From Dehalococcoidia bacterium (GTDB taxonomy: Bacteria > Chloroflexota > Dehalococcoidia > Lucifugimonadales > UBA3495), in assembly GCA_965243255.1 (NCBI GenBank), contig CBDEUH010000004.1, positions 580,456 to 644,455 on the forward strand: DNA of 64,000 nt. Direction: 5' to 3'. The position numbers were made by a program, and so were the translations under genes. The notes beneath the pieces are model-generated. The model was not told the origin of the DNA and searched no databases. It saw only the letters and a list, made by a program, of their open reading frames with translations. Below, piece by piece: positions 5,882 to 52,782 of the stretch. Every line of letters begins with the position of its first letter. Positions within the stretch are counted from its first letter, which is position 1.

Positions 5882-6258
5882 TCATTGGGGTTGGCTCCTT
5901 TAGCTTGGTTTGGGGATTTCGGTTTTCGGTAAGTTGGGCAGCCTGCTTGAGGTAAGGTGGTCGTTGTCAGCCCCACGGCCGGGGGAGTTACGCAAGGGGG
6001 TTTATACCCTCCGAGTGGGTGAGCCTAATGAGAGCGTCCAGTTCAGAGGTAGCCACCGTTAAGATTCGCACGGGTCATTTGTTAGCCGTACACGACGCAG
6101 TGGGTAGCGCGCTGGAACAAGCGTGGTCTTGCGATTTGGAGATGCTGACGGTTGTGGCCGTTGACGACCGAACTAACCGGGTGTGGTAGGTTCTTGATTT
6201 ACCTCGTTGCAGGCTGTGGGATACCGATGGTTTCGCTAGCGATGGGGCCATTATGAAC
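5882..6258 (+). repeat. conserved non-coding module, copy A (blocks 1-4 plus ~64-nt units)
   Basis: Blocks are shared with 43970-44415: a 37-nt identical run 5949-5985, a 31-nt identical run 6143-6173, and a 63-nt block 6196-6258 with 3 mismatches. Contains the palindrome TCGCTAGCGA at 6233-6242. Confidence 0.85.
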
Positions 6259-6383
6259 AGGTGTTCGGTAATATGTCAAGCGTTAGGTGTCACTGGATTG
6301 CCAGAATGAACGAGGTGGCGGGTTTTGGCTTGACGTGGCTGGCGTGTCATCGGCAGAATGGAAGCGGGACAATCCACAGGAGT

Positions 6384-6617
6384 ATGGCAATGGCTAGGAC
6401 TAAAGAGCAATTTTCCGGTCAGGCCTCGCCGGAGTTGCTGGCGGCAATGCGGAGCATCGCACGGGCAAAGGGCTGTGATTTTGAGGCTGCGCTGGAGGAG
6501 GCGATGCAGGAGTACGTCGCGAGCCAGAGCGCAGAGAAGGTACAGCCGGAAGCGGTAGCCCACTTCCGGGCGAGCCTGGAGCGCAACCGACGCCTCTACG
6601 AGTTGCTGGCCCAATGA
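6384..6617 (+). CDS. ribbon-helix-helix type antitoxin (partner of Doc)
   Basis: 77 aa from the ATG at 6384, with GGAG just upstream (ATG at 6390 is an alternative). Has an RHH-like N-terminus. Its stop overlaps the Doc start by 4 nt (ATGA). Confidence 0.7.
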   Translation: MAMARTKEQFSGQASPELLAAMRSIARAKGCDFEAALEEAMQEYVASQSAEKVQPEAVAHFRASLERNRRLYELLAQ

Positions 6618-6991
6618 CCCGTAATTTCCTTACAACCGAAACGGTCATCGTCATCCATGACATTTTGATTGAAGAGACCGGCGGGGCTGCCGGATTGCGG
6701 GACGCGGGAGCATTGGAATCAGCCATCATGCGACCGCAGATTGGGTACTACGACGGCATCATTGAGGAAGCAGCCGCACTCATGGAGAGCCTGGCCATTA
6801 ACCATCCCTTTGTGGACGGGAACAAACGTATTGCCCTGGCCGCTGCCGATGCGTTCCTGCGGATGAACGGGAAGTACATCGATTGCGACAGCGAGGAAGC
6901 TTACGAGCACTTCATGCATCTGTTTGATACCAACACGTTCCGGCTCGCTGAGCTGGCGGCGTGGCTCGAGGAAGCAGTGAAACCGCTCTGA
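6614..6991 (+). CDS. doc: Doc (death-on-curing) / Fic-domain toxin
   Basis: 125 aa. Carries the Fic/Doc motif HPFVDGNKR. Confidence 0.9.
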   Translation: MTRNFLTTETVIVIHDILIEETGGAAGLRDAGALESAIMRPQIGYYDGIIEEAAALMESLAINHPFVDGNKRIALAAADAFLRMNGKYIDCDSEEAYEHFMHLFDTNTFRLAELAAWLEEAVKPL

Positions 6992-7133
6992 TGAACGGCG
7001 TGGCTAGCGCAACTGCGCTAAAGTCGGGGCATGATTGCACCGGCAACCAGTAGGTGCTATGCGCGTACTGTCTCCTGGTGAAGGGGAATGCCTGGTGGAG
7101 AGGGGATTGGTGGCTTAAATTGGAGGGAAAACT

Positions 7134-8114
7134 ATGAAATCGCGAGCAAGGGAGCTTACGGACCGCGCTACATCTGCAATGTCCGCTGCAATTGAACTAT
7201 ACAACAAACCAGGATTTCCCTATCGCAGCGAATCCTTTGCGATCCTTGCTGTCAACGCATGGGAGCTATTGTTGAAAGCCAAGTGGTTGACCATTCATCA
7301 AAATAAAGAAGGTAGTTTGTACGTCCACGACTATCGAAGGAAAGCCAATGGGGAGTGGGGTCAGAAAAGTTATATTAGGAAGACTCGCTCCGGTGCGTCA
7401 TATACGCATGGCTTGGACTATTTGTCTAGCCAACTGGTTCATCGGGGCCTTCTCCATCCCTCTGCACATCGGAACATCGAGGTGATGCTGGAATTTCGTG
7501 ATTGCGCTGTTCACTTTTATACCCAATCACCGGAATTCAGAACACGTCTGCACGAGCTTGGCGCAGCCTGTGTCAAGAATTTCGCCACCGCTATGTATGA
7601 TTGGTTCGGAAGAGAACTATCCGAACTTGATCTGCACCTGATGCCGTTGGCATTCATTGACTTGCCCGCGAACGTGCATGGATCTTTGCTCAACGCCACA
7701 GAGAAGAATTTCTTGAAATTTTTGGAGGAGAAAGATGAAGATGAGGCTGATCAAATCTCTCCTTATACCGTCACCGTAAGTGTTAAAGTTAGCTTTGTGA
7801 AGTCCAAAGATAGCGATGCAATACTGGCTAGGGTTACGAATGATCCATCCGCAACGCCGATACGTCTCACGGACGATGAGTTCACAGCGAGATATCCATG
7901 GACCTACCTAACTTTAACGGGCAGGTGCGCACAACGTTACACCGACTTTAAACAGAACGCGGATTATCATTGCGTTCGCAAGCAATTGGAGCAAATACCA
8001 GGCTTTGCTAAGACGCGCTTCCTCAATCCAAACAACCCCGATAGTGCCAAGACAACCCGTTACAACCCAAGCATCCTGCAGGAATTTGACAAGCACTATA
8101 CGAAGAAAACGTAG
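7134..8114 (+). CDS. DUF3644-like protein
   Basis: 326 aa. N-terminal AIELYNKPGFPYRSESF...NAWELLLKAKW matches my recollection of the DUF3644 signature. GC is visibly lower than in the flanks. Confidence 0.65.
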   Translation: MKSRARELTDRATSAMSAAIELYNKPGFPYRSESFAILAVNAWELLLKAKWLTIHQNKEGSLYVHDYRRKANGEWGQKSYIRKTRSGASYTHGLDYLSSQLVHRGLLHPSAHRNIEVMLEFRDCAVHFYTQSPEFRTRLHELGAACVKNFATAMYDWFGRELSELDLHLMPLAFIDLPANVHGSLLNATEKNFLKFLEEKDEDEADQISPYTVTVSVKVSFVKSKDSDAILARVTNDPSATPIRLTDDEFTARYPWTYLTLTGRCAQRYTDFKQNADYHCVRKQLEQIPGFAKTRFLNPNNPDSAKTTRYNPSILQEFDKHYTKKT

Positions 8115-42123: not shown

Positions 42124-42738
42124 CTAGCCGTCCAGGGTGCCCTTGGTGCTGGGAACCTGCCCGACGGCGCGGGAGTCCGGTTCCACGGCGTCACGGATGG
42201 CCCGGGCCAGTGCTTTGCAGAGCGCCTCGGCCTTGTGGTGCGGGCTGACGCCGGCCAGAACCCTGGCGTGGAGGTTGATGCGCGCTTCCATGGCGAAGGA
42301 CTCCAGGAAGTGGGCAACCAGGTCGCCGGACAGGGTTTCCACCATGGTATCGTCCAGCGTGGTATCAACCGATGCGTAAGGCCGCCCGCTCCAGTCCACC
42401 GCGACCATCACCAGGGTCTCGTCCAGGGGCACGATGGCGTGGCCCATGCGCCGGATGCCCCTGGGTTCCCCCAACGCCTGGCCGAAAGCGCGCCCCAGCA
42501 TGATGGCGGTGTCCTCAACCAGGTGGTGCCAGCCCACGTGGGTGTCGCCCTGGGCCTTCAGGTCAATGTCAAAGAGGCCGTGGCGGGCAACCTGGCTGAC
42601 CATGTGGTCCAGGAAGCCGTTGCCGGTGTCAACGTCGTAGCGACCCTGCCCGTCCAGGTTGACGGTGATCGAGATGCTGGTCTCGGCGGTGGCCCGCTGC
42701 AGGCTGGCAGTTCGGGCCGGATCGTCGGAAGTGGCCAT
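42124..42738 (-). CDS. hisB: imidazoleglycerol-phosphate dehydratase
   Basis: GNGFLDHM and GDTHVGWHHLVED motifs. Confidence 0.9.
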   Translation of the reverse strand: MATSDDPARTASLQRATAETSISITVNLDGQGRYDVDTGNGFLDHMVSQVARHGLFDIDLKAQGDTHVGWHHLVEDTAIMLGRAFGQALGEPRGIRRMGHAIVPLDETLVMVAVDWSGRPYASVDTTLDDTMVETLSGDLVAHFLESFAMEARINLHARVLAGVSPHHKAEALCKALARAIRDAVEPDSRAVGQVPSTKGTLDG

Positions 42739-42739
42739 A

Positions 42740-43834
42740 TCAGTCCACTCCCAGGGCGGCGCGGAAACCGGCGATCACCGCGTCAGTCTCTTCGCGCTTG
42801 CCCACGCTGGACCGGATGTAGTCGCGCAGCAGGTCGTTGTCGAAGTAGCGCAGGAAGACGCCCCGGCGACACATCGCTTCATAGACCTCGCGGCCCCGTC
42901 CGTCGGGCATCTTGCAGAGGATGAAGTTGGCCTGGGACGGCCACACCTTGATTCCGGGGATTTCGCTCAGCAGCTGGTACATGCGGGCCCGCTCGGTGAC
43001 AATGGCGTCAACCCGCTCCAAAAGGTGGGCGGTGTCGGCCAGCGAGGCCAGCAGGGCAACCTCGGCGGCGAGGTTGACGTTGTAGGGCGGCTTCATGCCC
43101 ATCATGGTGGCGGCCAGCTCAGTGTCCATGGCGCCGGCGCCGATGCGGAGGCCGGCCAGGCCGGCCCACTTGCTGAAGGTTCGGAGAACCACCAGGTTGC
43201 GGTACTCGGGCAGCAGGGGCATCAGCGTCTGACCGCAAAAGTCGTAATAGGCTTCATCGGCTACCACCAGCAGGCCGGTGTCCAGCAGGGCGCGGGCCTG
43301 GGCTTCGCTGACCAGGTTGCCGGTGGGATTGTTGGGACTGGGGAAAAAGATGATCTTGGTGCGGGGGGTGATCGCGCCCTGGATGGCTTCAATGTCGATG
43401 TCAAAGTTGTCGTCGCGGGGCACGGATATGGCGCGGGCGCCGGCCACGTCGGCGGAGAATGAATACATTCCGAAAGTGGGCACGGGGATGATGATCTCAT
43501 CGTCCGGGGCCAGGAACATACGCATCAGCAGGTCGATGATCTCGTCGCTGCCGTTGCCGGCGACGATGTTGTCCTCGTGGACGCCCAGGTATTCGGACAG
43601 GGCGGCGCGCAGGCGACGCTGGGCCGGGTCGGGATAGTGATTGTAGTCCCGAAAGCTGCCCAGGGCCTCCGCCACTTGCGGCGAGGGGCCGTAGGGGTTT
43701 TCGTTGCCGTTGAGCCGGATGACCCGTTCCAGGGGGATGCCGGCTTCCTCGGCCAGGGTTTCGCTGGGAGAAACGCCCTGGTAGGTCTTGAGGCGGCTGA
43801 TGTGGGGGAGCAGCAGGTCTTCAATGTCAGGCAT
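42740..43834 (-). CDS. hisC: histidinol-phosphate aminotransferase
   Basis: 364 aa class-II aminotransferase with LNGNENPYGP and TFSKWAGLAGLRIG (PLP Lys). Confidence 0.9.
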   Translation of the reverse strand: MPDIEDLLLPHISRLKTYQGVSPSETLAEEAGIPLERVIRLNGNENPYGPSPQVAEALGSFRDYNHYPDPAQRRLRAALSEYLGVHEDNIVAGNGSDEIIDLLMRMFLAPDDEIIIPVPTFGMYSFSADVAGARAISVPRDDNFDIDIEAIQGAITPRTKIIFFPSPNNPTGNLVSEAQARALLDTGLLVVADEAYYDFCGQTLMPLLPEYRNLVVLRTFSKWAGLAGLRIGAGAMDTELAATMMGMKPPYNVNLAAEVALLASLADTAHLLERVDAIVTERARMYQLLSEIPGIKVWPSQANFILCKMPDGRGREVYEAMCRRGVFLRYFDNDLLRDYIRSSVGKREETDAVIAGFRAALGVD

Positions 43835-43852
43835 CGGTGTACTTCCCGTTTA

Positions 43853-43872
43853 GCTAGCGGGTGTTGGCGGCG
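43853..43872 (+). repeat. direct repeat (left), GCTAGCGGGTGTTGGCGGCG
   Basis: Identical 20-mer to 46874-46893. Confidence 0.95.
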
Positions 43873-43969
43873 GCAGGGCTATCGCGCATTCACTTTATAA
43901 GGATTGAGGCCGGGGCGCAACTACCCATACGCTCTCATGCGAACCCGCTTGGCTACGTTGGCTTGGCGC

Positions 43970-44415
43970 TCATTGTGGTTGGCTCCTTTGGGGGTGTCAG
44001 AATCAGGATTCACGGGATTTTGGGATTTTCAGGATTTTGGGTAGCCTGCGAGAGGTAAGGTGGTCGTTGTCAGCCCCACGGCCGGGGGTTGGTTACGCAC
44101 TTCCACATAGGTGTTTTTGTGACGGCAGTCAGTTCTCCGCCAATGGCCGCAGTGGTATCGCGCCGTTGCCACTTCCGGTGTCTATGACGGTCATCTGTTA
44201 TCCGCCAATGGCAGCTGTGGCCGCACCGTTGTCACTTCCAGTGTTTGTGACGGGGATCTGTTATCCGTCAATGGCAGCTGTGACCGCACCGGCGTGCGTG
44301 ATTAGGATTTGCTGACGGTTGTGGCCGTTGACGACCGAACCGTGATGGTTCTGATTTACCTCGTTGCAGGCTGTGGGGTACCGATGATTTCGCTAGCGAT
44401 GGGGCTATTATGAAC
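43970..44415 (+). repeat. conserved non-coding module, copy B
   Basis: Same block order and orientation as 5882-6258: block 1 43970-43989, block 2 44037-44099, block 3 44310-44340, block 4 44353-44415. Palindrome TCGCTAGCGA at 44390-44399. Confidence 0.85.
44120..44312 (+). repeat. tandem array of three ~63-65-nt units (each starting TGACGG)
   Basis: Unit starts are at 44120, 44185 and 44248, and the next TGACGG at 44313 opens conserved block 3. Units 2 and 3 match at 39/43 over their first 43 nt. Confidence 0.85.
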
Positions 44416-44549
44416 GGACGTTCTACGGATTGTCAATAGGCTGGTGTCGGTGTCGGCAAGCAGGCTATGGCGCAAGCGCCGGCGTGGGTCTCCGTAAACT
44501 GGTATAGTTTGAAAGTGGATGTTCCAATCGAACCGGGAGGTCAGGGAAA

Positions 44550-44828
44550 ATGACGGCAAGCAAAAATTCCGACGGCCCGGCCCCGGAGGCGGTGAAGGTT
44601 TCGGCAATGCTGGACGAACACGCCAGGCTGGCAGCGCTTTTGAGAGCCGCTATCGCGGCGACGCCAGCGTGTGACGATGACTACTGGGTTGGCATGAGCG
44701 TTGACGAAGTTGTGGTACGTGGCGAATCGCCGGAGGCGGTGATGGCCGCTATTGACGACCGGGGAATGGGCGGCGGTACCGTGGTGCTGGAGTTCGTGAG
44801 CGCTGAACCCCAGGTAATCGTCCTGTGA
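44550..44828 (+). CDS. small protein, DUF5678-like C-terminus (putative partner of the protease)
   Basis: 92 aa. YWVGMSVDEVVVRGESPEAVMAAI...VVLEFV resembles my recollection of the DUF5678 pattern. GGGAGG RBS. Its stop overlaps the next start (GTGA). Confidence 0.6.
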   Translation: MTASKNSDGPAPEAVKVSAMLDEHARLAALLRAAIAATPACDDDYWVGMSVDEVVVRGESPEAVMAAIDDRGMGGGTVVLEFVSAEPQVIVL

Positions 44829-45253
44829 TAACTGGCGAGTTCAAGGGCATCCAGCCTTATGTTTCGGCCGTGGTCGGGATACCTCGTCTGGAAGTGTTCG
44901 GCACTGTCGCGTTCCTAGTGGATACCGGAGCCTCGGTGACGTGCCTTCACCCCAGGGATAGCATTGCGCTGCGACTGCCCTTCGACCGCCTGGAGCGCAG
45001 CGAGCACATCGTCGGCGTGGGCGGTAGATCGGAGCGGTTTCTGGAACGCGCCACACTAACGTTTTTGGACTCGGCCGGCGCGGTCACCTACGTGTACAAC
45101 GTGGACGTTCGCGTTGGCAAGCCGGAGCAGGTGGGCAGCGGACTGCCATCCGTGTTGGGGCAGGACGTGCTTGACCCTTGGCTAATGGTGCATGACCCGA
45201 CCAACCACCGGTTGCAGTTTGACGTGCGGAGCGCGGACGCGATATCCGGTTGA
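44825..45253 (+). CDS. retropepsin-like (clan AA) aspartic protease
   Basis: 142 aa. FLVDTGAS catalytic motif, a VGVGG flap-like segment and a C-terminal LGQDVL motif. The GTG start is translationally coupled. Confidence 0.8.
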   Translation: MITGEFKGIQPYVSAVVGIPRLEVFGTVAFLVDTGASVTCLHPRDSIALRLPFDRLERSEHIVGVGGRSERFLERATLTFLDSAGAVTYVYNVDVRVGKPEQVGSGLPSVLGQDVLDPWLMVHDPTNHRLQFDVRSADAISG

Positions 45254-45321
45254 ACAACCACACGCTAGCGAGATAAAGATGATGGTGGCTGTATCGCGCC
45301 GCTTGGGTCGGCGGTGGCCCG

Positions 45322-46239
45322 TCAGGCGTCGGTGAAGTAGTTTTCGTCAATTTCCTTGATTTCATAGACGGTTTTGGTAATAACGCCGACGCCGTACTCA
45401 ATCATCAGCCTGGCCAGCTTCGGGCCATCAATGAGCAGGATGGTTTTGTTGTTGCGGGCGGCGCCATCGGCAGTGCGCTTGGCGGCCTCGCTGAAGCGGG
45501 AAGTCGTGATGAATACGCCCCGGGTTGCGCCGTGTGGGTCAAGGCTACCGGAGAAGTTGCGAATTTCCGGCTCACCAACTTGGGCGGTGTCCCAACGTTT
45601 GGCCTGGACGTACACCTTTTCGAAACCCAGCCGGTCCTGGGTCACGATGCCATCGATGCCGCCATCGCCGCTGCGTCCTACTCTGCGGCCTCGGCCATAA
45701 CCAATCTTGACCAGCAGCTCGACGACCAAGTCCTCAAAGCGTTCGGGCGATACGGCTTTTACGGTTTCCAGCAGTTCGTCAGCCAGTTGAGCCCGCAATT
45801 GCTCATAGGTGACTTCAATCTGCTCGTCGGGCGAAATGTCGCCGGCAGTTGGAATCGTTGCGGCAAAGGACGGCGAATCCTCTGGTGATTCCTGTTCGGC
45901 CACCAACATATTGAGCTGGGCCGGGTCAAGGGCGTCGGGATGATCGTGGAGATACCGGCGGCCTTGTTCGGTGATTTGGTAGTGGCCTCGCTCCGGGCCT
46001 TGGGACGGGGCATCAAGCAATCCGCCGCGTTTCAGCAGGTGCATTGAGTAGCGTGTGTGCTTCTCAACCCGCAGGGCGCCGTGGGGAGTGCGTTCTTGCA
46101 GGTCGTCGTCGCTCAATGAGAGCAATGGTATCAATTCATCGAGGATATCCCGGTAGGATAACCGTGTTTCCACTTGGGCGGTAATTTCCAGAATTGGCCG
46201 CAGGAATGCCCGTTGGGGTGGTAGAGCCATTTTTTGCAA
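45322..46239 (-). CDS. mrr: Mrr-family restriction endonuclease (Mrr_N winged helix + Mrr_cat)
   Basis: FEDLVVELL..GYG, GDGGIDG and VYVQAKRW motifs. Start at 46239 or 46230. Confidence 0.85.
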   Translation of the reverse strand: MQKMALPPQRAFLRPILEITAQVETRLSYRDILDELIPLLSLSDDDLQERTPHGALRVEKHTRYSMHLLKRGGLLDAPSQGPERGHYQITEQGRRYLHDHPDALDPAQLNMLVAEQESPEDSPSFAATIPTAGDISPDEQIEVTYEQLRAQLADELLETVKAVSPERFEDLVVELLVKIGYGRGRRVGRSGDGGIDGIVTQDRLGFEKVYVQAKRWDTAQVGEPEIRNFSGSLDPHGATRGVFITTSRFSEAAKRTADGAARNNKTILLIDGPKLARLMIEYGVGVITKTVYEIKEIDENYFTDA

Positions 46240-46388
46240 CTCGGCGCAGGGATTAACGCGCGCTGAGTGAATAATCTCAGTAGGATTTCCGAGTTAAATC
46301 ATTGCGCACTCAGCCGTCATCTTAGCAAGATGCACAAGGGCTGCCAATAGCAAGAGCAGCCCTTGGAGGATATGGCTGGCCGGCCGGT

Positions 46389-46670
46389 TCAGGCCAGCAA
46401 TTCTCGAAGTTCCGGGTAGCTCCTAAACCGTTCGTCGGCGTCGTTTGGGTCAACCTTGCTTTCCGCCCGCCAGAGCGACATATCCTTTACGTGCCGGACG
46501 ACGATAGCCCGCTGCCGTTCGTTGAGTTCTTCCCATGGTTTCAACCGTCGTCCCAAAGGCTCCGCCTGATCGAGGGCGTCGCAAAGAAACCAGCTCGGGT
46601 CGTTAGAGAGTTTCCAGAGGAGAGATTTTGAGAAATCATCGGGGGATTGCGTACCGACATTGCTGGTCAT
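46389..46670 (-). CDS. hypothetical protein
   Basis: ATG at 46670 with a GGAGG RBS. 93 aa, no family recognised. Same strand as and upstream of mrr. Confidence 0.5.
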   Translation of the reverse strand: MTSNVGTQSPDDFSKSLLWKLSNDPSWFLCDALDQAEPLGRRLKPWEELNERQRAIVVRHVKDMSLWRAESKVDPNDADERFRSYPELRELLA

Positions 46671-46873
46671 AAAAGATGCCTCCTGACGATGTTGGTCCAA
46701 TCCTGAACTTTTGCGAAGTGCGTCCAGGCATTCTCCAACAGCTGGGTGAGTTGCACCTGGAGGCGCTGGGGCTGGATACCGAGCCGCTGCTGGGGCAGTT
46801 GCGGAAGATGCGTTCCAACAGCAACTGGCGGCTTTCGTAAAAGGCGGGTTGGAGGCGGGTAGCCTAGGCCGGG

Positions 46874-46893
46874 GCTAGCGGGTGTTGGCGGCG
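46874..46893 (+). repeat. direct repeat (right), GCTAGCGGGTGTTGGCGGCG
   Basis: Identical to 43853-43872. Encodes the last codons (..AANTR) and the stop of hisD on the minus strand. Confidence 0.95.
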
Positions 46894-48218
46894 ATGTGGT
46901 CGAGGCGCGCCTGGACGGCGCCGGCGTGGCCGGGCAGCCCTTCGGCCTCGGCGATGCGGACGGCGGCGGGGCCCAGGTCGGAAAAGCGCTGGGGGCTCAA
47001 CCCGACGACGGGCATGGTGCGCAGGAAGTGGTGCACGCTAAGTGCGGAGCTGAAACGGGCGGTGCCGCCGGTGGGCATCACGTGGGACGGGCCGGCGATG
47101 TAGTCGCCCATGACTTCCGGGGAAAACTCGCCCAGGAACAGGCCGCCGGCGTTGCGAATCTGGCCGGCCCAGGCCCAGGGGTCGGCGGCCATCAGGCACA
47201 GATGCTCCGGCGCGATGCGATTGGCGACGGTGACGGCTTCGTGAAAATCGTCAACCAGGACGATGCAGCCCTGCCGTTCCAGGGAATGGCGGATGGTGTC
47301 GGCCCGGGGATTCCCGTCGATTTGCACGTCCAGCTCGGACTCAACGGCAGCTACCAGGCCGTCGGAATCAGTAACCAGGATGGCGGAGGCCATGGGGTCG
47401 TGTTCGGCCTGGGCGATGAGGTCGGCGGCGCAGAAAACCGGATTGGCGCTTTCGTCGGCCAATACGATGGTTTCGGTGGGCCCGAAAACGCCGTCGATAT
47501 CCACCTGGCCCTGCACCATGCGCTTGGCGTAGGCGACGAAAACGTTGCCGGGCCCGCAAATCTTGTCCACCTTGCCGATGCTTTGGGTTCCGTAGGCCAG
47601 GGCGCCGATGGCCGGCACGCCGCCGACCTGATACACGGCGTCCACGCCGGCGATGCGCGCGGCGGCCAGCACGGTGGAGTTGAGGGGTTCGCTGCCGCGG
47701 CGTGGGGTCGCCAGGACAACCTCGCTGACGCCGGCGACGCGGGCCGGGACGGCAGTCATCAGCACGGTGGACGGGTAAGCCGCCGTGCCGCCGGGAGCGT
47801 AGAGGCCGACACGCTCCAGGGGCCGCACCAGTTCGCCCAGGCCGCCGCCCAGGTCAACCCAGTCCCGGGGCAGCGTGGCCTCGTGAAACTCGGTGATGCG
47901 TCGGGCGGCCAGCTCCAGCGCCTGTTTGAGGTCGGCCGGCGTTTCGTCCCAGGCTGCGTCCAACTGGGATTGCGGCACTTGCAGGTCGTCAAGCTCGGCC
48001 CCGTCCAGCAGCTTGGCGTAGCGGCGGACGGCGCAGTCGCCCTCGTCGCGAACTTCCCGCAGCATTTGCAGGACGGACGACTCCGGCGTGGCATCGGCGC
48101 CGAACAGGTCGCGGGTGCGCTGCAAAACCGTTTCGGGCAGCGACGACAAGTCGAGGGGGTCGATGCGGGTCAGCGCGGATTCAGCGGCGGCCGCCCCGCG
48201 AACCTTTCTAAGTTGCAC
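46875..48218 (-). CDS. hisD: histidinol dehydrogenase
   Basis: 447 aa, colinear with HisD (YAPGG.A.YPS, QAEHD, ...H). GTG start. Confidence 0.9.
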   Translation of the reverse strand: MQLRKVRGAAAAESALTRIDPLDLSSLPETVLQRTRDLFGADATPESSVLQMLREVRDEGDCAVRRYAKLLDGAELDDLQVPQSQLDAAWDETPADLKQALELAARRITEFHEATLPRDWVDLGGGLGELVRPLERVGLYAPGGTAAYPSTVLMTAVPARVAGVSEVVLATPRRGSEPLNSTVLAAARIAGVDAVYQVGGVPAIGALAYGTQSIGKVDKICGPGNVFVAYAKRMVQGQVDIDGVFGPTETIVLADESANPVFCAADLIAQAEHDPMASAILVTDSDGLVAAVESELDVQIDGNPRADTIRHSLERQGCIVLVDDFHEAVTVANRIAPEHLCLMAADPWAWAGQIRNAGGLFLGEFSPEVMGDYIAGPSHVMPTGGTARFSSALSVHHFLRTMPVVGLSPQRFSDLGPAAVRIAEAEGLPGHAGAVQARLDHIAANTR

Positions 48219-48969
48219 TGAGATACTCCCGGGCCTGGATTATGGATTCATCGATAACCCGTTGGCGGTAGTCATCAATCAATTCGTGAGGAACGCGCTG
48301 GTACACCCGCTCCAGGCTATCGGGCATCTGGGCCAGGAAACCGTCAACAACCTGCTGCACTTCTTCGTTGTCGCGGTACATGCGGTTGAGAGCGCGCTTG
48401 AGGCGTTCCCAAGTGAAATCCCAGCCGAGCAGGCGGGCAACCCAACCGCGCCACTCGTCGATCAGTTCGTCCTGCAGGAACTCCAGGGCCGGCAAGGTGT
48501 CAACGGCGGCAATGGCGTCGTTCTCGGTGGTTAGCCCGCCGTTTTCACTGAGGGCCAGGCGGTCCATATCCAACTGCAGGGCGCGATCCCAGATGTGGGC
48601 CTCCACTTCGGTGTCGGTAACGCGGTTTTCCGGCGTGAAGTAGGGCCGGAACATGGTGGTAATCCACACCTCATCGGCGATGATATGGCTGATGTAGCCC
48701 AACAGGAAGGAACGGGTTTGCGGGGTGAGAGCGTTGTCGGAGCCGGCCAGGTCGGGATACATCTCAAACATACGCTCCACGCCGGCGCCGACGTGGTCAA
48801 CCGTCAAGTCGGAAAAATGAGTACGCCCCCGGTCCCACTTGGTCATGGCCCGGATGTCCGGCGTGGTGGAACCGAGGTAGGCCGCGCCGGGGTGGTCGTG
48901 GAGATACCCCCAATCCAGTTCGGTGGCAACCTGCTGGCAGATGTATATGTGCATGGGGAGGTTAGGCAT
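48208..48969 (-). CDS. zinc-dependent phospholipase C-like family protein embedded in the his operon
   Basis: Inner ATG at 48969 with a GGAGG RBS. The MPNLPMHIY... and GYISHIIADEVW His-rich motifs resemble the Zn-dependent PLC-like superfamily. It overlaps the hisG stop (8 nt) and the hisD start (11 nt). Confidence 0.5.
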   Translation of the reverse strand: MPNLPMHIYICQQVATELDWGYLHDHPGAAYLGSTTPDIRAMTKWDRGRTHFSDLTVDHVGAGVERMFEMYPDLAGSDNALTPQTRSFLLGYISHIIADEVWITTMFRPYFTPENRVTDTEVEAHIWDRALQLDMDRLALSENGGLTTENDAIAAVDTLPALEFLQDELIDEWRGWVARLLGWDFTWERLKRALNRMYRDNEEVQQVVDGFLAQMPDSLERVYQRVPHELIDDYRQRVIDESIIQAREYLSAT

Positions 48970-49981
48970 AATTGGCCGGTCCTCCATTGAGGGCAGCGAC
49001 GCGGTTGAGAAAACAGTTGAAGTGCTGGGACTGCCCCTTGAACAGGTATGACAGCTGGGCAGCGGCGATGTCAACGCCGCCACACTCGCGCAGGTGCGCC
49101 ACGGCGTCCAGCAGCCGGTTCTTGCGTATCAGGAGGGAAACGGCGTACCAGTCCTCCTCCTCGACGCTGAACACGCGGGCCACGGTTGGCCCCTGGATGC
49201 CGGCGATTTCGGGGCGAGCCAGGATCATGGCGCTGACGTCCTCCGCCGAGCGGCCCTGCACGTTGGCGGTGATGCGGTAGTAGGGCTCGGCGCGCAGGTG
49301 GGCCTCCAGCATTTCGGTGAGGGACTGAGCCAGCTCCAGGTCGGCGGGTCGTTTGGCCAGGGTGTGAGGGTTGGCGATGAGGCACGCCTGCGAGGTCAGG
49401 ATGGTGCCGCCGTCCAGGGTCTTCAGCCGATTTTCCCGCAGGGTGGTGCCGGTGGCGGACAGGTCGGCGATGAGGTCGGCATAGCCGGCGATGGGGGCGG
49501 CCTCCAGGGTGCCGCTGGCCGGAACCAGGGTGAAGTAATTGATGCCGCGCTCAAACAGGTAGCGACGCAGCAGCCGGGGGTACTTGGTGGCGATGCGCAG
49601 CTGCCGGCCGCGGGCGTGGAACTCCAGGGCCAGGTCGGCCAGGTCGTCGATGGACGTTACGTCCAGCCAGGAATCGGGCACGGCCAGCACGTAATCGCAG
49701 CCGCCGAACTCCAGGTCGTCCATCACCGAGACCACGGCGTTTTCGTCGTGGCGGTATTCCATCAGGCGGTCCAGGCCGGTGATGCCCATTTCGGCGCTGC
49801 CTTCCTCCACCTTGGTGGTGATGTCGGCGGTGCGCTGGAACAGCACGTCGATGCCGGGCAGGGCGGGTATGGAGCCGGTGTAGCGTCTGGCGTTGGGACG
49901 GCTCACCTTGACGCCGCAGGACGTCAGGAAGCGCATGGTCGGCTCGCCCAGTTCGCCGTCGCTCGGTATTACCAGTCTCAC
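48962..49981 (-). CDS. hisG: ATP phosphoribosyltransferase, long form with C-terminal regulatory domain
   Basis: 339 aa. Has the HisG catalytic core (DLSATGTTLRENRL) plus a ~90-aa C-terminal extension. Confidence 0.85.
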   Translation of the reverse strand: MRLVIPSDGELGEPTMRFLTSCGVKVSRPNARRYTGSIPALPGIDVLFQRTADITTKVEEGSAEMGITGLDRLMEYRHDENAVVSVMDDLEFGGCDYVLAVPDSWLDVTSIDDLADLALEFHARGRQLRIATKYPRLLRRYLFERGINYFTLVPASGTLEAAPIAGYADLIADLSATGTTLRENRLKTLDGGTILTSQACLIANPHTLAKRPADLELAQSLTEMLEAHLRAEPYYRITANVQGRSAEDVSAMILARPEIAGIQGPTVARVFSVEEEDWYAVSLLIRKNRLLDAVAHLRECGGVDIAAAQLSYLFKGQSQHFNCFLNRVAALNGGPANYA

Positions 49982-51416: not shown

Positions 51417-51492
51417 CGCCGGCTATTGTACCACCAACGGAGGGAAGGAGCAGTCAGGGAAAACGTGCGTTGAACCGTGCGATTATCGCCAG

Positions 51493-52680
51493 CTACACCT
51501 CTTCTTCGTTGCCCTCTTCAACAAAGTCGTTCACAACAGGGCTGATCTCCTCAACAAATCTCCGCACCTCTTCGGCTATCTTTCCGCCAAAGTCATCATT
51601 GAGTGTGTCGGTTCCGACATGCACTGCGATGCCATTGTCGTAAGGTTCTCGCGCCACGCCCTCAGGGAGACGGTCATACACAGCTTCGTTGCCCAGCCAC
51701 TCATTCAGGCCATCTTGATCATGCAGGAACAACACCCATTCCTGCCATTCACTCGCCCCTTTGGGGTACAGGTTCACTTGGTATGACATACCCCAGTTGC
51801 TCCATGGCGGCGACGAGTACCAGAGATGATAGTACCGCCCTTGCTGGTCAGCATGGCGTCCTGCCCAACGGCTGCTTTTATCAGGTCTAATTTCTTGCGG
51901 CAACTCGTTTATAGCTAAATCTCCCACTCGTCTAAGGAAATAGGTAACTGTGTCGTTACGGTTCCTTGCAAATGAGCGACTCAGTTTCTCACCCAGACTG
52001 CCGCCTCCGCTGGTCCCGTTGTCCTGCGCGTTGTCACCGATTCGTACAACGTAGTTGTCAATGCCAGGCAGGGGAATGATTGTCGACGCTTGCACGTATA
52101 GAATGTCGGTTTTAGAGTCATGATAGGGTGTGAGTTGGACGCACGTTATCAGGTTCTCATCGGGGGCTTTCTCGTTGAGCCAGAGCACGGCGGATGTCAC
52201 CTCTGGGGCGAATCGATGACTGGCCAGTATGATGCGTTGATCGTAATTGAGAGCGTTCAGGTCGTCAGCGCCCATGTGCTGCAACAAACGCTCAGCAGCT
52301 TCCGCCTTCGTAATTTTGCCGTCATATCTGACCAGCATGTCAACAATCTGGTCGGCATCGGCATGGTGCAGATAGCTAGCATATTTGATCGCCTGCCAGT
52401 GGGCATCAGCTCCGGTATCGTCGCGCTTCAACTCAATGACGACTAGTTTGCCGTCTCGTTCCACCGCCAATAGGTCCAACCGCTCGCTAGTGCGGTCAAA
52501 CCCGCTGAATTCCTTGCCGATTATCAGCAGGTCGTCGCCCAAAATTCCAGGGTTATCCGACACCCATTCCTGGATGTCCCTCCGTTCCTGAAATCCCAAC
52601 CTGGAGAAATCCACTTCGGCAATGGCTTCCGACGCCTGGTTTTCGGGGTTGATGCGGAACATTTTGGGTTCGCCGCTCAT
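51493..52680 (-). CDS. NucS/DUF91-like PD-(D/E)xK nuclease-domain protein with extended C-terminal domain
   Basis: RLDLLAV...LVVIELKRD is a D...E-x-K nuclease core. GC is lower than in the flanks. Confidence 0.6.
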   Translation of the reverse strand: MSGEPKMFRINPENQASEAIAEVDFSRLGFQERRDIQEWVSDNPGILGDDLLIIGKEFSGFDRTSERLDLLAVERDGKLVVIELKRDDTGADAHWQAIKYASYLHHADADQIVDMLVRYDGKITKAEAAERLLQHMGADDLNALNYDQRIILASHRFAPEVTSAVLWLNEKAPDENLITCVQLTPYHDSKTDILYVQASTIIPLPGIDNYVVRIGDNAQDNGTSGGGSLGEKLSRSFARNRNDTVTYFLRRVGDLAINELPQEIRPDKSSRWAGRHADQQGRYYHLWYSSPPWSNWGMSYQVNLYPKGASEWQEWVLFLHDQDGLNEWLGNEAVYDRLPEGVAREPYDNGIAVHVGTDTLNDDFGGKIAEEVRRFVEEISPVVNDFVEEGNEEEV

Positions 52681-52703
52681 ATTGGTTGTCCTTTGGGGTG
52701 GCT

Positions 52704-52731
52704 GGATTCCGGATCGAGTCCGGAATGACGG
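52704..52731. repeat. REP-like hairpin (GGATTCCGGA-TCGAG-TCCGGAATGACGG) followed by AATGACGGTGA reiterations
   Basis: Perfect 8-bp stem. Same family as 4038-4066. Confidence 0.7.
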
Positions 52732-52782
52732 TGAATGTGAAGGAATGACGGTGAGAGTAAAAGTCTGACGGTGTGGAGGGGG

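What the first reader, a model, noticed from the sequence alone, without database searches (positions are those of the whole stretch)
43853..46893. Integrase-less 3-kb islet inserted precisely between hisD and hisC with a perfect 20-bp direct repeat
GCTAGCGGGTGTTGGCGGCG occurs at 43853-43872 and 46874-46893. On the minus strand the right copy encodes the last hisD codons (..AANTR) plus the stop. The left copy is followed by a 19-nt spacer with a GGGAAG RBS and the hisC ATG (43834). Removing 3,021 bp therefore recreates a seamless hisD-hisC junction. That pattern points to site-specific integration into the 3' end of hisD rather than transposition, for which a 20-bp duplication would be unusually long. 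No frame in the islet encodes a tyrosine or serine recombinase, a DDE transposase or an HUH enzyme. The insertion also breaks the hisZ-G-D / hisC-B operon, so hisC and hisB must be transcribed through or out of the islet.
Basis: seen in the sequence. Interest (0 to 1): 0.75.

Follow-up and report, generated by a model that had tools for sequence, protein, structure and literature searches.

The report
Recombinase-less defence islet splitting his operon
A 3-kb piece of foreign DNA carrying a restriction enzyme, and no gene for its own insertion, sits exactly between two histidine-synthesis genes of a marine SAR202 bacterium, and related bacteria carry different cargo at the same spot with the same short end sequences.

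Summary
The 20-mer occurs exactly twice (43853-72, 46874-93). One copy is the last codons plus stop of hisD. Deleting one copy and the 3,001 bp between them leaves stop, 19 nt, hisC ATG. The two closest relatives found (hisD 95% and 93% identical) and about 15 further SAR202 genomes have this empty junction.

The islet has lower GC than its flanks. It encodes a type IV Mrr nuclease with a conserved 93-aa partner, and a retropepsin-like protease with a 92-aa partner. No recombinase or transposase was found, including in leftover ORFs.

It is not a one-off. Three other genomes, in two further lineages interleaved with empty ones, hold unrelated cargo at the same junction. None has a recombinase. 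All four share a 30-nt promoter-like motif facing hisC, beside a displaced hisD-tail copy of 20 to about 105 nt.

Best reading: a circular DNA carrying a hisD-tail copy inserted by one crossover in that tail, probably using host recombination. An unlinked integrase (CIME-like) is a serious rival. The islet appears to supply a promoter for hisC-hisB.

This resembles known restriction-gene insertions with target duplication and core-gene defence hotspots. Interest is moderate, and the mechanism is unresolved.

The parts
46874..46893 (-). Direct-repeat copy 1: the real 3' end of hisD (AANTR, stop, plus 1 nt). It forms the attL-like junction with the islet's left end.
43853..43872 (-). Direct-repeat copy 2: a displaced hisD-tail copy just upstream of the hisC ribosome-binding spacer. 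It forms the attR-like junction.
   Evidence: Homologous displaced tails occur in L009 (20 nt), L010 (about 105 nt) and, decayed, in L085.
46875..48218 (-). hisD (histidinol dehydrogenase), intact, 447 aa.
   Evidence: PF00815, 1.8e-150
42740..43834 (-). hisC (histidinol-phosphate aminotransferase). It is separated from hisD by the islet. hisB follows at 42124-42738.
43835..43852 (-). Native-type hisD-hisC spacer with the GGGAAG ribosome-binding site.
43892..43921 (-). Conserved right-end motif GTTGCGCC-N7-CAATCCTTATAAAGT. It reads as a promoter (TTGCGC, 17 nt, TAAAGT) pointing at hisC. It is invariant in its two blocks in all four occupied genomes and absent from the 85 other loci searched.
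   Evidence: The promoter reading is an inference.
43997..44045 (-). AAAATCC(T/C)G repeats containing ATCCTGAAAATCC. They are shared with the L009 right end and with a hairpin between orf93 and mrr in L084.
44094..44291 (.). Non-coding tandem repeat of 63 bp, 2.8 copies.
44407..44436 (-). Strong sigma-70-like promoter match (TTGACA, 18 nt, CATAAT; 11 of 12) reading through the repeats toward hisC. Short stretches of its downstream leader (77 nt at 77% and 40 nt at 92.5% identity) are conserved in the L087 islet at another locus.
44550..44828 (+). orf92, a small protein matching no family. It overlaps the start of the protease gene by 4 nt (GTGA).
44825..45253 (+). Retropepsin-like aspartic protease, 142 aa, with a DTGA motif.
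   Evidence: PF13975, 1.9e-6; weak match to PDC-M08B
45322..46230 (-). Mrr-type type IV (modification-dependent) restriction endonuclease with Mrr_N and Mrr_cat domains.
   Evidence: PF04471, 7e-36; mREase_IV, 2.5e-61
46389..46670 (-). orf93, a conserved small partner gene upstream of mrr, with an AGGAGG ribosome-binding site. It matches no family.
46794..46844 (-). Conserved left-end 51-mer (50 of 51 identical to L009) that folds into an imperfect hairpin about 30 nt after the hisD stop.

Best explanation
The 3-kb segment is a recently acquired defence islet with no recombinase gene. Its cargo is the type IV restriction enzyme Mrr with a 93-aa partner, plus a retropepsin-like protease with a 92-aa partner. 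It belongs to a family of islets in SAR202 (Dehalococcoidia) genomes that occupy the hisD-hisC junction. Shown: the islet is an insertion, other family members carry unrelated cargo, and all share a short right-end module. That module consists of a promoter-like motif followed by a copy of the hisD 3' tail. Inferred: a circular DNA carrying the hisD-tail copy integrated by a single reciprocal (Campbell-type) crossover within that tail. This duplicates the tail, so hisD keeps its stop codon and hisC keeps its ribosome-binding spacer. [quoted passage not shown] After insertion, orf93 and mrr lie co-directional with hisD. hisC-hisB are then transcribed from the islet's outward promoters: the conserved motif at 43892-43921 and the TTGACA/CATAAT site at 44407-44436. 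The 20-bp repeat would also allow precise loss of the islet.
For: The site is empty in the closest relatives: L081 (hisD 95% aa identity), L082/L083 (93%), and L001-L008 and L011-L017. GC is 0.55-0.61 inside against 0.65-0.73 in the flanks. No recombinase was found in the window islet or in L009, L010 or L085. Occupied genomes fall in three separate branches of a his-gene tree, interleaved with empty ones. The islets share only their ends. The 30-nt motif is in all four, about 100 nt of right end in three, and about 90 nt of left end in two, including a 51-mer identical at 50 of 51 positions. The flanking his genes are only 82-85% identical. Flanks next to the window's islet follow the species tree: hisC 5' end is 96-98% and hisD 3' end 92-95% identical to empty L081, with no tract resembling L009, L010 or L085. 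This points to precise insertion without co-transferred flanks. The duplicated hisD segment varies in length: 20 nt in the window and L009, about 105 nt at roughly 88% identity in L010. It always starts at a GCCGCC motif. A 34-nt (88%) duplication of another gene's 3' end flanks a 0.6-kb insert at an unrelated locus in L084. This suggests a general mechanism not tied to one att site. Precedent exists for restriction genes of types I-IV inserted with long, variable target duplication and no mobility genes (PMC2853133).
Against: Twenty bp is short for RecA-type recombination and lies within the range of integrase att cores. It is also below the 30-bp cut-off used in PMC2853133. In L009, L010 and L085 the current hisD tail (AAVQGR, AAVQGC, AARTG) diverges from the displaced tail right after GC(C/T)GC. 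A fixed crossover point like this is what a site-specific recombinase would produce. Conserved repeats near the right end could be arm-type binding sites. No circular form, empty-site read or recombinase dependence could be tested. L009's displaced tail and spacer nearly match L081's empty junction although their flanks are distant, which neither simple model predicts. Promoter function is only a sequence inference.
Confidence: 0.42

Rival explanations
1. CIME-like element. The islet is flanked by attL and attR made by a site-specific (probably tyrosine) recombinase that targets the hisD 3' end. Its attP carries a hisD-tail mimic. The recombinase gene was lost or lies elsewhere, so the islet is integrated and excised in trans.
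For: The perfect 20-bp repeat covers the 3' end of a conserved gene, with the gene end restored. Empty sites in relatives are clean. The same site is occupied in three lineages without co-transferred flanks. The hisD tail is replaced right after GC(C/T)GC in L009, L010 and L085, consistent with a fixed crossover. Non-coding ends are conserved and carry short direct repeats that could be arm sites. The CIME concept is established (PMC5704250).
Against: No integrase-bearing element was found at this site in about 110 hisD loci examined, including four occupied sites and five smaller insertions. The duplicated segment varies from 20 to about 105 nt. The end motifs and the 20-mer are absent from IMG/VR. 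The two right-end motifs are absent from JGI metagenomes. The islet has no match in the plasmid and phage collections.
Confidence: 0.3
2. Hotspot allele exchange. One ancient insertion created an occupied hisD-hisC allele with a tail duplication. That allele spread and changed cargo by homologous recombination in the flanking his genes. The 20-bp repeat is a relic and plays no role in mobility.
For: The same junction holds different cargo in different genomes. A second variable slot between an adh_short gene and hisZ, 5 kb away, has no repeats at all. Tail and spacer alleles are mosaic relative to the gene tree. Core-gene defence hotspots without mobility genes are known (PMC10250203 and PMC10121019, listed).
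Against: No tracts of raised identity between occupied genomes were seen next to the islets at 120-nt resolution. The sister genomes L009 and L010 differ exactly from the hisD stop to the hisC ATG. Recombination across 15-18% divergence would be inefficient.
Confidence: 0.17
3. Transposition or casposon-like insertion producing a 20-bp target-site duplication.
For: The perfect direct repeat equals a single copy at the empty site.
Against: No transposase, Cas1 or HUH gene was found. No terminal inverted repeats were found. Homologous islets in L009, L010 and L085 lack identical flanking repeats.
Confidence: 0.04
4. Assembly artefact: a false join through a shared 20-mer (k-1 for k=21) placed an unrelated sequence between hisD and hisC.
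For: The repeat length equals k-1 of a common smallest k-mer. This rests on my own knowledge of assemblers.
Against: Homologous islet ends lie at the same junction in independent assemblies, including chromosome-scale ones: L010 (OY763072.1) and L085 (a 3.7-Mb contig). A chance 20-mer shared between unrelated DNA is very improbable.
Confidence: 0.03

Closest known systems
[quoted passage not shown]
   Same: A restriction gene sits in a small insert with no mobility genes. It is flanked by direct repeats that are single-copy at the empty locus of a related genome. Type IV systems are among the reported cases.
   Different: The window's repeat is 20 bp, below that study's cut-off of more than 30 bp. 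Here several islets with unrelated cargo share conserved non-coding ends and the same target. The repeat is the functional 3' end of a gene inside an operon.
CIMEs (cis-mobilizable elements), such as decayed ICE/IME relatives at the 3' end of a housekeeping gene (review PMC5704250)
   Same: They retain attL- and attR-like repeats, have lost or lack integration and transfer genes, target a gene's 3' end that stays intact, and often carry restriction cargo.
   Different: No cognate integrase-bearing element was found at this site in any relative. Repeat length varies among family members. No tandem accretion with an ICE or IME was seen.
Core-gene defence hotspots (P. aeruginosa cDHS, PMC10250203; E. 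coli hotspots, PMC10121019)
   Same: A fixed position between conserved core genes holds different defence cargo in different genomes, often without mobility genes.
   Different: The position is inside an amino-acid biosynthesis operon. Occupancy is rare: 4 of 23 close genomes compared. The islets carry a conserved outward promoter-like end and a duplicated target tail.

Membership tests
CIME (cis-mobilizable element) | [quoted passage not shown] | tested here: met
   A 20-bp perfect repeat equals the hisD tail, and the empty site has one copy.
CIME (cis-mobilizable element) | [quoted passage not shown] | tested here: met
   No recombinase, relaxase or transfer domains were found in any ORF.
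CIME (cis-mobilizable element) | Derives from, or is mobilised by, a related integrase-bearing element with the same att specificity | tested here: inconclusive
   None was found at hisD in about 110 loci. The source genome outside the window and the full public data could not be searched.
CIME (cis-mobilizable element) | [quoted passage not shown] | not testable with these tools
   This needs reads or experiments.
Restriction-gene insertion with long target duplication (PMC2853133) | Insert under 20 kb containing restriction genes and no mobility genes | tested here: met
   The insert is 3.0 kb with an Mrr type IV enzyme and no mobility genes. That study's intraspecific screen required both R and M homologues, and a type IV enzyme has no M.
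Restriction-gene insertion with long target duplication (PMC2853133) | Target duplication longer than 30 bp | tested here: not met
   The duplication is 20 bp in the window. The related L010 islet has about 105 nt at about 88% identity.
Restriction-gene insertion with long target duplication (PMC2853133) | Repeat aligns to a single copy at the empty locus of a related genome | tested here: met
Core-gene defence hotspot | Same core-gene-flanked slot carries different cargo in different genomes | tested here: met
   Window: Mrr and protease. L009: type II R-M. L010: IS5 fragment and an unknown gene. L085: four other genes.
Core-gene defence hotspot | Cargo is predominantly anti-phage defence | tested here: inconclusive
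   Two of four islets carry clear restriction systems. The others are unknown.
Integrase-encoding integrative element (prophage, ICE, IME) | Encodes its own tyrosine or serine recombinase | tested here: not met
DDE or HUH transposon, or IS | Transposase gene, terminal inverted repeats or hairpin ends, and a short target-site duplication | tested here: not met
   No transposase. No terminal inverted repeats. Related copies lack matching duplications.

The most novel reading that the evidence does not exclude
The hisD-hisC islets are a family of recombinase-free, homology-guided cassettes. Each has a minimal non-coding backbone: a hairpin after hisD, and an outward promoter plus a copy of the target gene's tail before hisC. 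The backbone carries interchangeable defence cargo. It excises and re-integrates through its tail copy using only host recombination, and it insulates the split operon with its own terminator-like and promoter ends. If the duplication of a gene's 3' end seen at a second locus reflects the same process, this could be a general route of gene-cassette mobility in SAR202.
Probability: 0.2. Interest if true: 0.7.

Novelty: new variant of a known kind. Interest (0 to 1): 0.42.

Why it matters
It shows how defence genes can enter, and probably leave, the middle of an essential biosynthetic operon in an uncultured marine and sponge-associated lineage without any element-encoded recombinase. The insert keeps both neighbouring genes intact and appears to bring a promoter for the downstream genes. 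The conserved 30-nt end motif gives a simple search handle for more members. A wider survey could settle whether such islets move by host recombination or by a hidden integrase. That question also bears on how integrase-less defence hotspots arise in general.

Tried and rejected
- Exact-sequence look-ups of the window's hisD, hisC and Mrr found nothing, so the source genome is not in that index.
- IMG/VR scans for both right-end motifs, the left-end hairpin, the AAATCC-repeat motif and the 20-mer all found nothing.
- BLASTN of the islet against PLSDB plasmids and INPHARED phages gave no match.
- Rfam scans gave no hit at gathering thresholds on the whole window, nor at E up to 1 on the islet. 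No tRNA or tmRNA was found.
- I considered that the Zn-phospholipase-C-like gene between hisG and hisD is a second insertion. I rejected this because it is conserved in nearly all SAR202 relatives examined.
- I considered that the 63-bp repeats are a CRISPR-like array. I rejected this because whole units are 86% alike and have no variable spacers.
- I looked for donor-derived recombination tracts in hisD and hisC next to the islets and found none at 120-nt resolution.
- I looked for a 3'-end duplication at the neighbouring adh_short|hisZ variable slot and found none.
- A dif/Xer (IMEX) or integron attC reading was rejected by inspection. The 20-mer has no dif-like palindromic arms, and the ends have no inverted core sites (plus my own knowledge).
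Full report
**Observation.** The 20-mer GCTAGCGGGTGTTGGCGGCG occurs exactly twice in the window, at 43853-43872 and 46874-46893. No third copy appears even with three mismatches, and none of 100 shuffles gave two matches. On the minus strand the right copy is the end of an intact hisD (46875-48218; Histidinol_dh, E = 1.8e-150) and reads AANTR, stop, plus one base. The left copy is followed by 18 nt (a 19-nt stop-to-ATG gap) containing GGGAAG and then the hisC ATG at 43834. The 3,001 bp between the copies have GC 0.55-0.61 against 0.65-0.73 in the flanking his genes.

**Contents of the islet.** On the his-gene strand:
- a 93-aa ORF (46389-46670) with an AGGAGG ribosome-binding site, matching no family;
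- an Mrr-type type IV restriction endonuclease (45322-46230; Mrr_N and Mrr_cat; PADLOC mREase_IV, 2.5e-61).

On the opposite strand:
- a two-gene operon with a 4-nt overlap, made of a 92-aa ORF and a 142-aa retropepsin-like aspartic protease (PF13975; weak PADLOC PDC-M08B match).

About 680 nt next to hisC are non-coding. They hold a 63-bp tandem repeat (2.8 copies), AAAATCC repeats, and an 11-of-12 sigma-70-like promoter match (TTGACA, 18 nt, CATAAT; 44436-44407) reading toward hisC. Pfam, PADLOC, NCBIfam and PHROGs scans of the four real ORFs showed no recombinase, transposase or HUH domain, and Pfam scans of seven further leftover ORFs of 50 aa or more also showed none. Rfam and ARAGORN found nothing.

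**It is an insertion.** A hisD-based scan of one genome per species returned 80 loci, all Chloroflexota and mostly SAR202/Dehalococcoidia MAGs.
- L001-L008 have hisD stop, then 20 nt, then hisC ATG.
- L011-L017 have about 35-55 nt between the genes.
- The closest hisD proteins in the large protein collection (95% and 93% identity) lie on contigs with the same empty junction and a 19-nt spacer.
- The reconstructed window junction has the same architecture as these empty sites.

The Zn-phospholipase-C-like gene between hisG and hisD is present in nearly all SAR202 relatives examined, so it is ancestral.

**It is one of a family.** Three other genomes carry insertions at the same junction:
- L009, 3.0 kb: a type II restriction enzyme, an N6/N4 methylase and a 160-aa ORF;
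- L010, 2.0 kb: IS5-family transposase fragments and an unknown ORF;
- L085, 3.9 kb: four genes including DUF805 and a LuxR-type regulator.

None encodes a recombinase apart from the IS fragment.

The cargos are unrelated, but the ends are not.
- All four islets share GTTGCGCC-N7-CAATCCTTATAAAGT, 55-95 nt upstream of hisC. Both blocks are invariant and the spacer varies.
- The window, L009 and L010 share about 100 nt of right end.
- The window and L009 also share about 90 nt of left end, including a 51-mer identical at 50 of 51 positions that folds into a hairpin (z = -2.0).

For comparison, the flanking his genes of these genomes are only 82-85% identical. The 30-nt motif occurs in no other fetched locus (88 at the time), nor in JGI metagenomes or IMG/VR.

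In a neighbour-joining tree of hisG, the phospholipase gene, hisD, hisC and hisB, the occupied genomes fall in three places. These are the window (sister to empty L081), L009 with L010, and L085. Empty genomes lie between them.

**The duplicated tail.** Every islet has a displaced hisD 3' fragment between the conserved motif and the hisC spacer.
- The window and L009 have 20 nt.
- L010 has about 105 nt at about 88% identity to its own hisD.
- L085 has a decayed trace.

The fragment always begins at a GCCGCC(GCC) motif, which occurs both about 105 nt and about 20 nt before the hisD stop. In L009, L010 and L085 the working hisD tail (AAVQGR, AAVQGC, AARTG) differs from the displaced tail, and the two diverge right after GC(C/T)GC. 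Only the window has two identical copies.

Next to the window's islet the flanks follow the species tree. The hisC 5' end is 96-98% and the hisD 3' end 92-95% identical to empty L081. Neither shows raised identity to L009, L010 or L085. The insertion therefore looks recent and precise, and I can detect no co-transferred flanking DNA.

**Where the cargo comes from.** The orf93-mrr pair (79-83% nt and about 90% aa identity) lies at other chromosomal sites in related genomes.
- It is upstream of panB in L084 and L092; L089-L091 carry mrr there, with the orf93 homologue uncalled and apparently disrupted in L089.
- It is between prs and relA in L087 and L088.

The module therefore moves within the clade. 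In L084 a 34-nt (88%) duplication of the 3' end of the neighbouring DUF2520 gene flanks a 0.6-kb one-gene insert. This is the same signature at an unrelated gene.

A second variable low-GC slot lies 5 kb away, between an adh_short gene and hisZ. It holds different cargo in almost every genome but shows no such duplication.

**Mechanism.**
- *Transposition.* Effectively excluded. There is no transposase and no terminal inverted repeats, and family members lack matching duplications.
- *Ancestral architecture.* Excluded by the empty relatives.
- *Allelic replacement by recombination in the flanking his genes.* This explains the mosaic tails and the general hotspot behaviour. It does not explain the lack of donor tracts, nor the fact that sister genomes L009 and L010 differ exactly from the hisD stop to the hisC ATG.

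Two models remain. In both, a circular DNA carrying a hisD-tail copy inserts by a single crossover in that tail.
- *An unlinked site-specific recombinase (CIME-like; definition in PMC5704250).* This fits the fixed divergence point and the conserved ends. However, no integrase-bearing relative was seen at this site in about 110 loci.
[quoted passage not shown] It fits the variable duplication length, the diverged copies in L010, the second-locus example and the absence of any recombinase. Its weakness is that 20 nt is short for this route.

I rank host recombination slightly ahead (0.42 against 0.30). The data here cannot settle it.

**Expression.** orf93 and mrr are co-directional with hisD and could be read from the his promoter or from a weaker site at 46347-46319. 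hisC-hisB need a new promoter. The motif conserved in all four islets reads as TTGCGC, 17 nt, TAAAGT. Its pattern of two invariant blocks around a variable spacer of fixed length is typical of promoters. The stronger consensus match at 44436-44407 lies upstream of it. Both readings are inferences. The left-end hairpin may mark the end of the hisD transcript.

**Unexplained.**
- L009's displaced tail plus spacer is almost identical to L081's empty junction, although their flanks are only about 85% identical. L010, which is L009's sister, has a quite different spacer.
- The window's tail and spacer are more diverged from L081 (about 78% identity) than the adjacent coding sequence (96-98%).
- The motif ATCCTGAAAATCC recurs in intergenic positions of other SAR202 loci: 12 hits with at most one mismatch in 1.76 Mb, against about 2 expected by my estimate. 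Its role is unknown.

**Verdict.** The finding is a variant of known phenomena: restriction-gene insertion with target duplication, CIMEs and core-gene defence hotspots. Its distinctive features are the conserved non-coding ends, the promoter-like end and the position inside an operon. Interest is moderate.

Noticed in passing
window 51417-52782: A second low-GC variable slot (GC 0.57-0.59) lies between an adh_short gene and hisZ. It holds a 395-aa ORF with a weak NucS-like nuclease match. The same slot is empty (55 nt) in L014 and L015 and holds different genes in nearly every other relative, for example an AAA_15/AAA_21 ATPase plus DUF4276 in L085. No flanking duplication was found.
   Followed up: partly
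window 6000-8000: A third low-GC region (GC 0.49-0.57) contains a 326-aa DUF3644 protein at 7134-8114 (+). It may be another islet.
   Followed up: partly
window 48208-49083 (minus strand): A Zn-dependent phospholipase-C-like gene sits between hisG and hisD and overlaps both. It is conserved in this position in nearly all SAR202 relatives examined, which makes it an odd fixed member of the his operon.
   Followed up: partly
window 44094-44291: A 63-bp non-coding tandem repeat (2.8 copies, each with an ATGACNGTCAT-like palindrome) lies downstream of a strong promoter match. The 63-bp period is about six helical turns (my own calculation). Its function is unknown; it could be operator sites, iteron-like sites or an RNA.
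   Followed up: partly
window 44023-44035; L084 7796-7829; L009 14155-14167; L022 7912-7924 and 11359-11371: The motif ATCCTGAAAATCC / GGATTTTCAGGAT recurs in islet ends, as a perfect hairpin between orf93 and mrr in L084, and in intergenic spacers of the his operon in a distant relative. It is enriched over my rough chance estimate.
   Followed up: partly
L084 6764-6797 and 7346-7379: A 34-nt direct repeat (88%) of the 3' end of a DUF2520/F420-oxidoreductase-like gene flanks a 0.6-kb insert carrying one 103-aa gene, just upstream of orf93-mrr. L089 shows a more decayed version of the repeat, by eye.
   Followed up: partly
P0001-P0120 and loci L001-L086 (hisD C-termini): The last 3-5 residues of hisD after the invariant LDH(I/L)AA are hypervariable in sequence and length among close relatives (TQTR, MQTR, AHTR, IHTS, NTR, NAP, RTG, VQGR and others). 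The preceding 35 residues are nearly invariant. This may simply be an unconstrained tail, or it may be scars of repeated recombination at this site.
   Followed up: partly
L085 11785-12190: Three partial copies of the sequence just upstream of the conserved promoter-like motif (TGATCCGG...TAG(C)GTTGC) lie in the 400 nt before hisC. This might reflect serial insertions or local duplication.
   Followed up: no
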